This document shows, piece by piece, positions 25,814 to 29,559 of a DNA stretch of 64,000 bases (position 1 is its first letter; every line of letters starts with the position of its first letter). The position numbers and the translations under genes are program-made. The notes below the pieces were generated by a model. It was not told the DNA's origin, did not search any database, and worked only from the letters and a program-made list of their open reading frames with translations. The DNA comes from Escherichia phage JLBYU28, in the sequence record OK272472.1; one strand, written 5' to 3'.

Positions 25814-28339
25814 TTAAGCAGTTCTCACCCAAGCCATTAACTTATAGAACTGGTTAGTTACGCTAAATGCTGAACCAGAACCTGTACCTCCAGTGTTACC
25901 ACTCACTGTATGGCTGTGAGCACCAATACCAACAGTGTGAGCATGGTTTCCGTTAGAGGCAGCAGTACCAGACACAGTGTGTGAGTGATTCCCAGCAGCT
26001 CCTGACGTGCCATTAAACGATGGGTTGTCAAAGCCTGTTTTACCGGTTTCACTGTTCGTTCTGGCATTACCCCTGTAAATGGTATGTGTATGGTTACCTG
26101 TTGTGTTCGTTGAACCACTCACTGAGTGGGTGTGAGCACCAGTAGTGTTAGTGGTTTTAGTTCCATAGTCAAAGCTAGAGGTTGTTGCAGAGAAACTATG
26201 AGTGTGTGAAGGTAAGTTTCCAACTGCTAACGTAACAGAATCCGACCCACCAGTGGTAGCAACATCTGAACCATTTGCTGCTGCAATTCTGATAGTTCTA
26301 CCAACACCATTGTTCAGGTACGTCCAAGTTAATCCAGGAAGTGCGGTATTAGGGTTAACATTACTGTTAAACCACGTTACGATACCTACTGGATAGATTT
26401 TATTCAGGTCTGTAGAGTCACTTACTGCCTGTGCAATCTTCTGGTCAGTTTCTGCTTTAGTGTATGCACCGATATCTGAAGGGGTTGGTTTTTGCATATT
26501 TGTGTAGTATTTTGCAATTGTACCCTTTACAATACCTTGCGGAGCGTCATCAAATGTTTGTGGTACTCCAAACAACTGCACACCTGCATTACTAGTATAT
26601 TGGACTCTTGATGTTGTACCATTCTGGAACGCACCGACCTTACAGTAAATATCATAAGTGTCTCCAGAAGTATTCACAGAGCCGATATCCGTAATAATGG
26701 GATTCTTCGAGTTTTTCCAAGCAACAATATTTAAACCCTTTGGGCTCCCATTCCCCGTTCTGAGAACAATTTCCGTTTTACAAGCTTGGTCAAGTACACC
26801 ATAGTTAAAGCCTGACCCACCAAACACTTCAATCACCGCAGTAGATGCGGATTGCGGCATTACAACAGTAGCAATTTTAGCCCACTTTTCATCGTCTCCA
26901 TTATTGAAGTTAGTACTTCCGATTCTCAGGTATCTACTATCACTAGCACTTTGAGTAAAGTATCTAGCATCTAAGTTAGAGAAATCTGAAGGTTGAATCT
27001 GCCCTGCTAGGGTTAATGTCTTATTGATACTTGCAGTTGAGTTACCTAAAATTAACTGAGTGCCAGAGAAGCTGTTGTTTAAGGCTACATCAGTAGAATT
27101 TGGGCCACCAACACCTACCCACCATCTTGATGCATTGGCAGCGTCCTTACCACGAATATACAATGGCCTACTCTGAGTAGAGTTTTTAATAACTAAACCT
27201 TCGCCATCACTAACAACTGTTTGCGCACCATTAAAAGTATTTTGTGTATTAGTTCTTGCAATCGTACTTAATGTTGCTGCCGGAATATATCTAGAGTCAA
27301 TGTTAGAGAAATCTGAGGGTTGAACCTGCCCAGTGATTTGCACGGTTTTATTGATACCAATAGTTGTACCTAGTGAAACCCGCGAACCTGTAAGGTAGTT
27401 ATAAATGTTTAGACGTGTATCTTCAGAATCTGTACCAACATACCATTTATTTGTTCCATCAGACTTCTTACCGAGAATGTAAAGTGGTGTACTTGCATCA
27501 GTATTCTGCAAAGTAAGAGCATTAGCGTTCTTCTTAACAACAAGGTTAGTGAAAGTATTAGCACCTGTAAAAGTGTTATCCCCAGCTAACTGTGCAAATC
27601 TCTGATTAGCAACTGTCTGAGTAAAGTATCTATCATCTAAGTTAGAGAAATCAGAAGGTTGGACTTGACCAGTGATTACTAAAGATTTATTAACAGAAAT
27701 ATTACTTGCAACAGTCAAGGCTGAGTCGTATTTGTTGTTATACAGGTTTACTGTATCACCGCCATTGCGACCAATACCGACCCACCATCTAGCCGAACCA
27801 TCTAGGTCTACACCTTCAATATATTGTGCATTATTTGCATTTTGGTTTCTAAGGCGAAGTAAGTTAGCATCACCTTGAATTTGCTGAGTCCCAGAGAATG
27901 TGTTTGTGACAGCAAGTCTTGCATATCTTGCGTCATTCTCTTCATTAGTTCTCATACCAAGCTCATTAGGACTTGGCTTATTCAGAGTATGATAGACAGT
28001 TGCAGACCTTGAAGCATCTGCAATAGTTAGTTTAAGACCATTTGCATTAATTTTAAAAGTCTTTAAAACATCCCCCATAGTAATCTCAGAAGAGCCTGTA
28101 GGGTCAAAGACTGCCTTACCACCATAAAGTAACTTAACAATCCCTAAGTCACCAGTCATAGTACTACCAGCAATCTGAACAAATCTTTCAAGCTTAAAAG
28201 ATGCTAAGAAATCTTGATAGGTCATTCGACGGTCTTCATCACCCAGCATTTCAGGTCTCTTTTTAACCCTGACATGAAGAAGGTCATCTGAACGGATTGT
28301 ATCGATTGAGTTTAATTCACTCAACTTGTAATCTGCCAT
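25814..28339 (-). CDS. Tail fibre protein (long) with His-x-His repeat tip domain
   Basis: 841 aa; C-terminal HTHS/HSHT/HAHT repeats; C-terminal region paralogous to 28390-29559. Confidence 0.65.
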   Translation of the reverse strand: [841 protein letters not shown]

Positions 28340-28389
28340 TATTTTTGTCCTCTAGAAAGAGGGCTATACAGCCCCCTGTAAAAGAATTT

Positions 28390-29559
28390 TTAAGCGGTTC
28401 TTTGCCATACATAAACTACAAAAGATGGTTGCTCAACACTAAATGCTTGACCAGCACCAGTAGCACCAGTAGTACCTGAATGGGTGTGTTCTCCAGCTCC
28501 AGTAACACTAACCGTTACATTGTGTGAATGCGCTCCGATAGCAACAGTGTGTGAGTGTGAACCAATAGCCACCGTGTGATTATGGTTACCATTGGATGCA
28601 GCAGTACCACTAATGGAGTGAGAGTGGTTACCAGCACTATCTGTCTGAACGGTATTCCTGTGCCCATCCCTATCCCAGTCACCTGACGCACCAGTAGCTT
28701 GGTAACCAGTGACATAGCCATGTGTGTGAGCACCTGTTGTATTTGTTGAACCACTCACTGAGTGGGTGTGAGCACCAGTAGTGTTTGTGGTCTTAGTACC
28801 GTAATCAAATGATGAGGTTGATTTAGTACCATAATCAAACGTACTAACTGAGACATTTGCACCATGATTATGATTTCCACCTGCTAGGTAGATAGAATGA
28901 CTGTGCGATGGTAAGTTGTTGCTAGATAAGCTAATACTACTTGAGCCAAAGTTACTACCAACTGGCCTAGAAGCACTATCATAACCTACAAGTGCTCTTC
29001 CTCTTGAAACTAACTCCCAAGTACCTCCACAAATTAAATATGTAGAGGGGTTTGCAGGATTCATAGAGAGATGGATAGTACCTACTGGATAAGAAGCCTG
29101 AACAGCCTTGTACAAGTTATTTACTGCTCTTGCTGTAGCATACTTATCTGCATCTTCATTATAAAGGTTAGACGTTGTCCAGTTCTGGACATTACTTAAA
29201 CCAACCTGTGCCTTAGTTGTATTGTGTGGGTTGCTCTTGTCATTAATATGCTGCTGAATAAGGCTATTAACCTCTTCTGAAGACATAATCTGTAGATTTG
29301 CTCTTGCCTCAGCTACATTAACAATATCTGATAAGTTATTTGCAGCAACTAACTGAAGAGCATTGATAACGTTATCTAAACCAATTTGTGTTTTAGTAAC
29401 ACCGTGGGGGTTATTTCTTAGGCTTGAGTGTGGAGCAAGTAATTGCTCAAGAGTACATCTCTTATCCTCAATACCCTGCTTAAGATGGAAGATATCACTA
29501 AGGTCAATTGGTAAGGCTGCTTGAGGCAAGGCACTAATTTGAATTTCACCTACTGCCAT
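28390..29559 (-). CDS. Tail fibre protein with His-x-His repeat tip domain
   Basis: 389 aa; [38 protein letters not shown]; shares [26 protein letters not shown] with the 841-aa fibre. Confidence 0.65.
   Translation of the reverse strand: [389 protein letters not shown]

What the first reader, a model, noticed from the sequence alone, without database searches (positions are those of the whole stretch)
26109..28785. Paralogous tail-fibre tips with His-x-His repeats and a 41-nt identical DNA segment
Both fibres end in repeated HTH/HSH/HNH/HAH motifs, the pattern that coordinates iron in the T4 gp37 and gp12 fibre tips. Segments 26109-26149 and 28745-28785 are identical at the nucleotide level within otherwise diverged genes, giving a homology patch for domain exchange between the two receptor-binding proteins.
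Basis: partly seen in the sequence, partly recalled or inferred. Interest (0 to 1): 0.45.

Follow-up and report, generated by a model that had tools for sequence, protein, structure and literature searches.

The report
Recombining tail-fibre tips, Felix O1-like phage
Two neighbouring tail-fibre genes of a Felix O1-like phage both end in the histidine-rich, metal-binding needle known from the phage T4 long fibre, and their 41 shared bases fit the familiar recombination that shuffles receptor-binding tips between fibre genes, so this is real but ordinary.

Summary
Window 26109-26149 and 28745-28785 are identical, and this is the longest exact direct repeat in the 64 kb. Both copies encode [14 protein letters not shown].

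The genes are the long (25814-28339, 841 aa) and short (28390-29559, 389 aa) tail fibres of a Felixounavirus, both on the minus strand. Their C-terminal tips are paralogous (40% aa identity) and match the T4 gp37 tip crystal structure 2XGF (E 5e-28 and 5e-15). All seven gp37 HxH motifs align in the short fibre. This architecture is already published for Felix O1 and Bas63.

The 41-nt tract has no synonymous difference across 13 codons, against about 43% elsewhere (permutation p = 0.017). It lies on the ascending needle strand, two HxH layers before the variable head domain.

Comparison with 37 related genomes supports exchange:
- The same head types occur in both fibre genes, up to 100% nt identity within one genome.
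- The 99 nt holding the tract groups with long-fibre genes, while the collar and C-terminal end group with short-fibre genes.
- The long fibre's head cassette (25974-26110) abuts the tract and is 88% identical to P2-like prophage fibre genes.

This is the conserved-motif recombination known from T-even adhesins. It is a new member of a known kind, of modest interest.

The parts
25814..28339 (-). Long tail fibre gene (841 aa), orthologue of Felix O1 gp77 and Bas63 gp27. It has an N-terminal baseplate-binding part, three beta-helix repeat units, and a C-terminal gp37-like tip.
   Evidence: ORF. Pfam gp37_trimer x3, E 2e-81. Syntenic genes annotated as tail fibre in HK3, JH2, Felix O1 and mio. 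PDB 2XGF, E 5e-15.
28390..29559 (-). Short tail fibre gene (389 aa), orthologue of Felix O1 gp76 and Bas63 gp26, with a C-terminal gp37-like tip.
   Evidence: ORF. Pfam Gp10_C, E 1.5e-18. PDB 2XGF, E 5e-28, with 7 of 7 gp37 HxH motifs aligned.
26109..26149 (-). The 41-nt identical tract in the long fibre. It encodes N731-T744 ([14 protein letters not shown]), one 14-residue needle repeat carrying the HxH layer H736/H738.
28745..28785 (-). The 41-nt identical tract in the short fibre. It encodes N259-T272 and carries H264/H266.
26207..26404 (-). Collar domain of the long fibre (NKIYPVG...NLPS).
   Evidence: Pfam Gp10_C 23.3 bits, below the 27-bit cut-off. Aligns to the short-fibre collar. Coordinates checked.
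26084..26206 (-). Ascending needle strand of the long fibre, with three HxH motifs (H712, H736, H750).
25988..26083 (-). Head (receptor-binding tip) domain of the long fibre, 32 aa, 'type C' ([32 protein letters not shown]). It aligns with the T4 gp37 segment that begins at residue 932, which contains the residues mapped as essential for tip function.
   Evidence: T4 mapping from PMC6957217.
25904..25987 (-). Descending needle strand of the long fibre, with three HxH motifs (H785, H799, H808).
25974..26110 (-). Cassette (HxH, head, HxH) shared with P2-like tail fibre genes: 87.6% nt identity to Peduovirus P2_4A7b and 88% to prophages in 63 of 5426 E. coli genomes. Its 5' end abuts the 41-nt tract, and the highly identical core starts at 26098.
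28906..29100 (-). Collar domain of the short fibre.
   Evidence: Pfam Gp10_C above cut-off. PDB gp10 chains, E 1e-6..
28720..28905 (-). Ascending needle strand of the short fibre, with four HxH motifs (H219, 230, 264, 278). It is 21 residues longer than in the long fibre.
28627..28719 (-). Head domain of the short fibre, 31 aa, 'type B' ([31 protein letters not shown]).
28480..28626 (-). Descending needle strand of the short fibre, with five HxH motifs (H312, 326, 335, 344, 358). It is also 21 residues longer than in the long fibre.
26952..27691 (-). Three internal repeat units of the long-fibre shaft: a 74-nt conserved core recurring every 327-339 nt.
   Evidence: the repeat finder family D1. 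Pfam gp37_trimer, 3 stretches.

Best explanation
The region holds the receptor-binding tips of the two tail fibres of a Felix O1-like myovirus.

Architecture. Each tip has the T4 gp37 layout: a collar, then a needle in which the chain runs out to a small head domain and doubles back. HxH motifs on the outgoing and returning strands stack metal sites, 9 in the short fibre and 6 in the long one. The variable head, about 31 aa, contacts the host receptor. The 41 identical bases encode exactly one 14-residue needle repeat ([14 protein letters not shown]) on the outgoing strand, two HxH layers before the head.

Origin of the identity. It has two sources. The first is strong protein constraint on the HxH-bearing strands. 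The second is homologous recombination (gene conversion) between the two paralogous tips and with fibre genes of other phages.

Role. The conserved HxH and TNTTG codons that flank the head act as short homology arms, so heads move as cassettes. They move between the short- and long-fibre genes, between Felixounaviruses, and between these and P2-like and T4-like fibres.

In this window. The long fibre carries a head cassette of P2-like prophage type that begins directly after the tract. The short fibre carries a different head. The phage therefore probably presents two binding specificities.

What is shown: the architecture by homology, the mosaic junctions, and the phylogenetic incongruence. 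What is inferred: that this particular tract arose by conversion, that it can still serve as a crossover site, and that metal is bound.
For: Architecture
- PDB 2XGF matches at E 5e-28 and 5e-15 with HxH motifs in register.
- Pfam finds Gp10_C, gp37_trimer and Phage_fiber.
- Cryo-EM of the orthologous Bas63 fibres shows collar, HxH needle and head (PMC12609058).
- The short needle exceeds the long one by two insertions of exactly 21 residues, one on each strand, as a hairpin needle requires.

Conversion and exchange
- The tract has 0 synonymous differences in 13 codons against 43% elsewhere, p = 0.017.
- The 99-nt segment holding the tract in the short fibre is 86% identical to long-fibre genes of its own clade but only 67% to short-fibre genes of distant clades. 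The collar shows the opposite pattern (50% vs 71%), as does the C-terminal end (38% vs 70%).
- Phage A132's two genes are identical over 66 nt, and its long-fibre gene carries its own short-fibre gene's C at arm position 69, which only one other long-fibre gene (L010) has.
- Head types A and B occur in both fibre genes. The two L012 heads are 100% identical in nt. The L010 long-fibre head is closest to the L002 short-fibre head (95.5%).

Junctions at the motifs
- The window's long-fibre cassette 25974-26110 matches P2-like fibre genes at about 88% and abuts the tract.
- Nine informative sites pair the window with P2_4A7b, and A132 with phage Chuche, which implies repeated exchange.
- In L027 the head starts right after AHTH, inside the tract.
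- The AYO145A long-fibre tip is 87.8% identical over 287 nt to T4 gene 37.

Against: - The statistical excess for the tract itself is only p = 0.017.
- The three synonymous states that set the window's short fibre apart from its nearest relatives HK3 and JH2, and that create the unbroken 41 nt, are not a significant cluster (3 of 23 lineage-specific sites in 41 of 810 nt, P about 0.11). They could instead be changes in the HK3/JH2 lineage.
- On the 3' side of the head the two genes of this window share at most 14 identical nt. A head swap between them would need a second crossover in poor homology.
- No recombinant derived from this particular pair was observed.
- A simple crossover between the two direct copies would delete 2.6 kb and one fibre.
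- Metal binding and trimer structure could not be tested. The single-sequence AlphaFold2 monomer was uninformative (pLDDT 36.7).
Confidence: 0.75

Rival explanations
1. Identity by descent only. The two tips are old duplicates, and the 41 nt are identical because the HxH repeat is under very strong purifying selection with preferred codons. No recombination has occurred between the paralogues in this lineage.
For: The encoded motif is nearly invariant even in T4 gp37 ([17 protein letters not shown].SGST). The codon-level excess is modest (p = 0.017). The window-specific changes are not significantly clustered.
Against: Serine codons (TCA, AGT, TCA) and threonine codons (ACT, ACT, ACC) are matched exactly, although these residues have 6 and 4 codons. 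The closest orthologues HK3 and JH2 carry 3-4 synonymous differences in the tract, so it is not constrained at the nucleotide level. The segment shows clear phylogenetic incongruence with the collar and the C-terminal end. Longer identity tracts of 66 and 113 nt in relatives cannot be explained this way.
Confidence: 0.17
2. The tract is a functional nucleic-acid element present once in each gene, such as an RNA structure, a regulatory site or a recombination hotspot sequence, and is conserved for that reason.
For: It is the longest exact repeat in the window, and a weak hairpin can be drawn.
Against: Folding energy is not unusual (z = -0.92 and -0.57). The sequence is not conserved in distant Felixounavirus clades, where it varies at synonymous and non-synonymous sites. 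Close relatives tolerate synonymous changes.
Confidence: 0.03
3. It belongs to a programmed diversification system: a diversity-generating retroelement template/variable repeat pair, or an invertible fibre-tip segment.
For: Repeats sit at the 3' ends of receptor-binding genes, which is where such systems act.
Against: Both copies are coding and in direct orientation. Mismatches in the flanks are not adenine-specific. No inverted repeats of note flank the tips. No reverse transcriptase or invertase is annotated near the fibre genes of any relative inspected. The whole window was not scanned for a reverse transcriptase.
Confidence: 0.01
4. It is an assembly or sequencing artefact that copied a short stretch from one gene into the other.
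For: Short-read assemblers can mis-join at repeats.
Against: Independent genomes show the same or longer paralogue identity at this place: A132, mio, Felix O1, L009 and L012. Both reading frames are intact, and 41 nt is shorter than typical reads.
Confidence: 0.01

Closest known systems
T4 gp37 long tail fibre receptor-binding tip (PDB 2XGF)
   Same: Collar, six-stranded needle with stacked HxH metal sites, and a small head at the turn. The sequence is alignable over about 210 residues, including the block [17 protein letters not shown].SGST. The HxH directly before the head corresponds to T4 H929/H931, and the head to the T4 tip whose residues 933-949 are essential for function (PMC6957217).
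   Different: There are 9 and 6 HxH layers instead of 7, and the head sequences differ. No gp38-like chaperone gene lies next to the fibre genes; the next genes downstream are annotated as a small hypothetical protein and a holin. The tip is fused to much shorter shafts, and two such fibres are encoded side by side.
Felixounavirus short and long tail fibres (Felix O1 gp76/gp77; Bas63 gp26/gp27)
   Same: Same gene order (wedge proteins, 100-aa protein, short fibre, long fibre), same lengths and same tip architecture. The literature already notes the gp37 similarity of both fibres (PMC3185647) and gives 7 and 6 di-histidine motifs for Bas63 (PMC12609058).
   Different: This phage pairs a type B head on the short fibre with a P2-like type C head on the long fibre. 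Among the genomes examined, that pairing was seen only in the unverified records A132 and A126. No GenBank phage record matches the whole two-gene locus above about 91%.
Conserved-motif recombination in T-even adhesins (gp37 and gp38; Tetart et al. 1996, 1998)
   Same: Short, highly conserved motifs flank hypervariable receptor-binding segments, and recombinant junctions lie in or next to them (PMC3157838). Here the junctions lie at HxH and TNTTG codons.
   Different: Here the partners include two paralogous genes within one genome, as well as P2-like prophages. The evidence is comparative only; no recombinant was selected experimentally.
P2-like (Peduovirus) tail fibre gpH with a gp37-type tip
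   Same: Same collar, HxH needle and head. The head cassette is 81-88% identical in DNA to the window's long fibre.
   Different: It has one HxH layer fewer before the head: the 14-residue unit that the 41-nt tract encodes is absent. The descending strand and C-terminal end differ, and a tail-fibre assembly gene follows gpH.

Membership tests
T4 gp37-type receptor-binding tip | Significant sequence similarity to the gp37 C-terminal region that was solved as 2XGF | tested here: met
   Short fibre E 5.2e-28 over residues 146-359. Long fibre E 5e-15.
T4 gp37-type receptor-binding tip | HxH motifs on both needle strands, in register with the seven metal-binding HxH motifs of gp37 and flanking a short head segment | tested here: met
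   In the short fibre, 7 of 7 gp37 motifs align, with two extra. In the long fibre, 5 align, with one extra. The heads are 31 and 32 aa and sit between the motifs.
T4 gp37-type receptor-binding tip | Collar domain (gp10/gp12-like) before the needle | tested here: met
   Short fibre: Pfam Gp10_C 68.5 bits (cut-off 27) and PDB gp10 chains at E 1e-6. Long fibre: only 23.3 bits, below the cut-off, but it aligns to the short-fibre collar.
T4 gp37-type receptor-binding tip | Intertwined homotrimer with iron ions held by six histidines per layer | not testable with these tools
   The AlphaFold2 single-sequence monomer was uninformative (pLDDT 36.7), and no multimer prediction or metal analysis is available. 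Cryo-EM of the Bas63 orthologues supports the fold at domain level only.
T4 gp37-type receptor-binding tip | Dependence on dedicated chaperones (gp38 and gp57A in T4) | not tested
   No chaperone-like gene is annotated next to the fibre genes in relatives. The rest of the window was not searched for one.
Conserved-motif cassette recombination of fibre tips | Short conserved motifs flanking a hypervariable receptor-binding segment | tested here: met
   At least 12 unrelated head types lie between conserved G.H.H motifs in 37 genomes.
Conserved-motif cassette recombination of fibre tips | Mosaic junctions located in or next to the conserved motifs | tested here: met
   The P2-like cassette runs from the GNHTH codons to the GNHSHTV codons. 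The L012 paralogue identity tract runs from HTH to HSHTV. The L027 junction lies directly after AHTH.
Conserved-motif cassette recombination of fibre tips | Recombinants arise in crosses and change host range | not testable with these tools
   This needs phage crosses and selection on resistant hosts.
Gene conversion between paralogues (concerted evolution) | A tract of raised identity bounded by diverged flanks, beyond what selection on the protein explains | tested here: inconclusive
   A run of 13 identical codons, p = 0.017. The window-specific changes are not significantly clustered, P about 0.11.
Gene conversion between paralogues (concerted evolution) | Phylogenetic incongruence: paralogues group together in the tract but by gene in the flanks | tested here: met
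   For the 99-nt segment holding the tract, 86% to own-clade long-fibre genes against 67% to distant short-fibre genes. The pattern reverses for the collar and the C-terminal end. The head-identity matrix pairs L012's two heads (99.1%) and puts the L010 long-fibre head closest to the L002 short-fibre head.
Diversity-generating retroelement | Reverse transcriptase plus template/variable repeats that differ at adenines | tested here: not met
   The mismatch spectrum is not adenine-specific. Both copies are coding. No reverse transcriptase is annotated in the neighbourhood in relatives. The whole window was not scanned.

The most novel reading that the evidence does not exclude
Felixounaviruses may run their two fibre tips as a two-slot cassette system. 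Ongoing gene conversion would copy head domains between the short- and long-fibre genes, guided by nucleotide-conserved HxH repeat codons. New heads would be imported from P2-like prophages of the host and from T4-like phages. A phage could then switch between presenting one receptor specificity on both fibres (as in Felix O1, UAB_Phi87-like L012 and JH2) and presenting two different ones (as in this window). On this reading, the synonymous-site conservation of the repeat is maintained partly because it keeps the slots recombinable.
Probability: 0.3. Interest if true: 0.5.

Novelty: new member of a known kind. Interest (0 to 1): 0.3.

Why it matters
Felix O1-like phages are used for Salmonella typing and are candidates for biocontrol and therapy. 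Their host range is set by these two tips. If heads move as roughly 130-nt cassettes bounded by HxH codons, between the two fibres and from P2-like and T4-like fibres, that gives natural, structurally tolerated junctions for engineering host range. It would also explain why fibre phylogenies disagree with genome phylogenies in this genus. It adds no new principle: the fold and the recombination mode are both established.

Tried and rejected
- Structure prediction. A single-sequence AlphaFold2 run on the short-fibre tip (residues 140-389) gave pLDDT 36.7 and pTM 0.15, which is useless for an intertwined trimer. I ran no fold search and did not use the second prediction job, because sequence homology to 2XGF already answers the fold question.
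- RNA structure in the tract. Fold z-scores were -0.92 and -0.57. Rejected.
- Invertible segment. No meaningful inverted repeats in 24000-31000. Rejected.
- Diversity-generating retroelement. The mismatch spectrum is not adenine-specific. Rejected, although the whole window was not scanned for a reverse transcriptase.
- Direction of conversion in this window. I compared the short fibre with HK3 and JH2. Three window-specific sites in the tract all match the long-fibre state, but 3 of 23 sites in 41 of 810 nt is not significant. Left open.
- Literature. Searches for 'His box' with gp37 and for Felix O1 with gene conversion found nothing specific. The Bartual 2010 paper (PMC2996694) is not held. 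One search failed on a term that was too short.
- Not used: the large protein searches (search for homologous proteins, the search of protein representatives). Nucleotide-level comparison of 37 related loci was more informative for this question.
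Full report
**1. The observation**

This is the longest exact direct repeat in the 64-kb window. The next longest is 24 nt, in the tRNA cluster.

Both copies lie on the minus strand, in frame. One is in an 841-aa ORF (25814-28339) and the other in a 389-aa ORF (28390-29559). Both encode [14 protein letters not shown].

The tract is not the visible part of a longer uniform homology:
- the surrounding 101 nt are 85% identical;
- the 666 alignable nucleotides of the two C-terminal domains are 57% identical;
- the proteins align only over their last 230-270 residues, at 40% identity (E 2e-49).

The long protein has 6 HxH motifs and the short one has 9.

**2. What the genes are**

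The locus is 84-91% identical to many Felixounavirus genomes (Felix O1-like myoviruses of Salmonella and E. coli). No GenBank phage record matches the whole two-gene locus more closely than that.

Gene order is the same as in HK3, JH2, Felix O1, mio and ULIM9: thymidylate synthase, holin, small ORF, long fibre, short fibre, 100-aa protein, 285-aa and 489-aa baseplate wedge proteins. The window also carries 22 tRNA genes, the same number as Felix O1 (PMC3185647).

The two ORFs are therefore the long and short tail fibres. They correspond to Felix O1 gp77/gp76 and Bas63 gp27/gp26.

**3. The HxH interpretation**

The short fibre matches the crystal structure of the T4 gp37 receptor-binding tip (2XGF) at E 5e-28 over residues 146-359. 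All seven HxH motifs of gp37 align to HxH motifs of the query. The long fibre matches at E 5e-15, with five motifs in register. Pfam adds Gp10_C (collar), gp37_trimer x3 in the long shaft, and Phage_fiber.

In T4, the HxH next to the tip (H929/H931) binds one of the seven iron atoms. Residues 933-949 of the tip are needed for infection (PMC6957217). The segment between the third and fourth HxH of the long fibre, and between the fourth and fifth HxH of the short fibre, is the equivalent head.

An internal consistency check supports the hairpin needle. Relative to the long fibre, the short fibre has two insertions of exactly 21 residues, one on the outgoing strand and one on the returning strand.

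None of this is new. Whichard et al. noted the gp37 similarity of both Felix O1 fibres in 2010. The 2025 cryo-EM study of Bas63 describes collar, HxH needle and head for both fibres.

A single-sequence AlphaFold2 monomer was uninformative (pLDDT 36.7). Trimer formation and metal binding remain inferred.

**4. Is the 41-nt identity more than protein constraint?**

The encoded block is very conserved. T4 gp37 itself reads [25 protein letters not shown]. However, among the 111 codons that specify the same residue in both window genes, 43% differ in the codon used. The tract is a run of 13 identical codons, including three serines and three threonines. Shuffling gives a run that long with p = 0.017.

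The closest orthologues of the short fibre, HK3 and JH2, carry three or four synonymous differences inside the tract. It is therefore not constrained at the nucleotide level. No RNA structure signal was found.

The three synonymous states that distinguish the window's short fibre from HK3 and JH2 all equal the long-fibre state. That fits a short conversion tract of 10-41 nt. But 3 of 23 lineage-specific sites in 41 of 810 nt is not significant (P about 0.11). For this phage alone, conversion is likely but not proven.

**5. Comparative evidence for exchange**

I compared 29 IMG/VR loci, six GenBank Felixounavirus loci and two P2-like phage loci.

(a) The heads are modular. At least 12 unrelated head types lie between conserved HxH motifs, and short- and long-fibre heads assort independently among phages.

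(b) Two head types occur in both genes:
- Type A (GGRYGGDSIGGK) is in both fibres of Felix O1, L002, L009, L010 and L012.
- Type B (GDWDxDG) is in both fibres of HK3, JH2 and mio, and in the short fibre of the window and of A132.
- In L012 the two heads are 100% identical in nt, within a 113-nt exact match.
- The L010 long-fibre head is closest to the L002 short-fibre head (95.5%).

(c) The 99-nt segment that contains the tract is phylogenetically incongruent with its flanks. For the window's short fibre:

| Segment | vs long-fibre genes of its own clade | vs short-fibre genes of distant clades |
|---|---|---|
| 99 nt holding the tract | 86% | 67% |
| Collar | 50% | 71% |
| C-terminal end | 38% | 70% |

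(d) In A132 the two genes are identical over 66 nt. The A132 long-fibre gene also carries its own short-fibre gene's C at arm position 69, a state seen in only one other long-fibre gene (L010). In mio and A132 the whole 5' arm of the short fibre is of long-fibre type.

**6. Junctions at the tract**

The window's long-fibre head (type C, [13 protein letters not shown]) is rare in Felixounaviruses; it was seen only in A132 and A126. It also occurs in P2-like fibres.

At the DNA level, window 25974-26110 is 87.6% identical to the Peduovirus P2_4A7b fibre gene. It is 88% identical to gpH of P2-like prophages in 63 of 5426 complete E. coli genomes.

- The BLAST match starts at the last two bases of the 41-nt tract.
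- The highly identical core starts 11 nt further on, at the GGT AAC CAT ACA CAT (GNHTH) codons.
- It ends at the AGNHSHTV codons.
- Upstream and downstream of this cassette, the gene is ordinary Felixounavirus long-fibre sequence.
- P2-like genes lack exactly the 14-residue repeat that the tract encodes.

Nine informative sites pair the window with P2_4A7b and A132 with phage Chuche. Four sites support the alternative grouping (window with A132, P2_4A7b with Chuche), and none supports the third possible grouping. The cassette has therefore crossed the family boundary, or recombined across it, more than once.

Two further observations agree. In L027 the long-fibre head begins directly after AHTH, inside the tract. 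The long-fibre tip of AYO145A (L001) is 87.8% identical over 287 nt to T4 gene 37.

**7. Mechanism and its limits**

The best-supported reading is that the codons of the HxH/TNTTG needle repeats, kept similar by protein constraint, serve as short homology arms for recombination that moves head cassettes. The 41-nt tract is both a product of such exchange and, at 41 perfect bases, the best available crossover site between the two genes of this phage.

The limits are these:
- On the 3' side of the heads, the window's two genes share at most 14 identical nt, so a clean head swap between them would be inefficient.
- A single crossover between the direct copies would delete 2.6 kb and one fibre.
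- No recombinant was observed.
- Which recombination system acts is unknown.

Because the two heads of this phage differ (types B and C), it probably presents two receptor specificities. That is an inference.

**8. Comparison with what is known, and novelty**

The fold matches T4 gp37. The membership features that can be tested by sequence are met. Trimer formation, metal binding and chaperone dependence were not testable.

The recombination mode matches the conserved-motif exchange described for T-even gp37 and gp38 adhesins (Tetart 1996 and 1998, cited in PMC3157838). It also fits the long-known horizontal transfer of fibre segments among unrelated phages.

I found no paper describing exchange between the two Felixounavirus fibre genes, or the P2-like cassette. 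The Bas63 paper does not mention recombination, and a search for Felix O1 with gene conversion found nothing specific. That part is a new example, not a new kind.

**9. Verdict**

The finding is a new member of a known kind, with interest about 0.3.

Noticed in passing
L001 7706-7992 (IMG/VR contig identical to Escherichia phage vB_EcoM_AYO145A, KR014248): The long-fibre tip of this Felixounavirus is 87.8% identical in DNA over 287 nt to T4 gene 37. It encodes a T4-type head (YIEAWNGTG..KMSSYA..YRAGGSNTNAAG). L006 has the same type. This is cross-family exchange with Tequatrovirus.
   Followed up: partly
L030 (MG065664.1, 'Campylobacter phage A132') and MG065668.1 (A126): These records, flagged UNVERIFIED and labelled as Campylobacter jejuni phages, are Felixounavirus-like. 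They are the closest known relatives of the window's long-fibre tip (94.2% over 607 nt). The host label looks doubtful.
   Followed up: no
window 25988-26083 versus L030: Between the window and A132, the long-fibre needle segments on both sides of the head are 99-100% identical, but the head itself is only 84% identical. Divergence is focused on the receptor-binding head and is partly explained by mosaicism with two different P2-like donors.
   Followed up: partly
window 28480-28905 versus 25904-26206: The short-fibre needle is longer than the long-fibre needle by two insertions of exactly 21 residues, one on each strand, which add three HxH layers. The short fibre also has tandem FDYGTK and VAIG.HSH duplications (27-nt spacing, the repeat finder family D5).
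   Followed up: partly
L027 about 7700-8160 (IMG/VR contig of 87,609 bp): The long fibre has a needle one layer shorter on both strands (4 HxH) and a further head type (QFGGYINSFYGDSSHTSFQPGGGAWTQAAG) that starts directly after the AHTH codons of the tract.
   Followed up: partly
L008 5723-8093 and L009 5718-8061: The long-fibre gene is split into two ORFs (541+259 aa and 453+311 aa) in these two IMG/VR genomes. This could be a frameshift, a sequencing error or a pseudogene.
   Followed up: no
window 49284-54034: A cluster of 22 tRNA genes on the minus strand, the same number as Felix O1. Nearby are short exact direct repeats (24 nt at 53374/53680; 20 nt at 53464/53846) and a palindromic match around 53118-53242.
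   Followed up: no
L038 6438-8549 (E. coli Ecol_AZ159 P2-like prophage): Between the tail-fibre assembly gene and the sheath gene, the prophage carries an AAA-family ATPase and a DUF4435 protein. This pair sits at a known P2 variable spot and looks like a defence cassette.
   Followed up: no
window 26952-27691: The long-fibre shaft has three repeat units with a 74-nt conserved core every 327-339 nt (69-78% identical), matching Pfam gp37_trimer three times. The Bas63 paper reports unexpectedly high variability in these beta-helix repeats across the genus.
   Followed up: no
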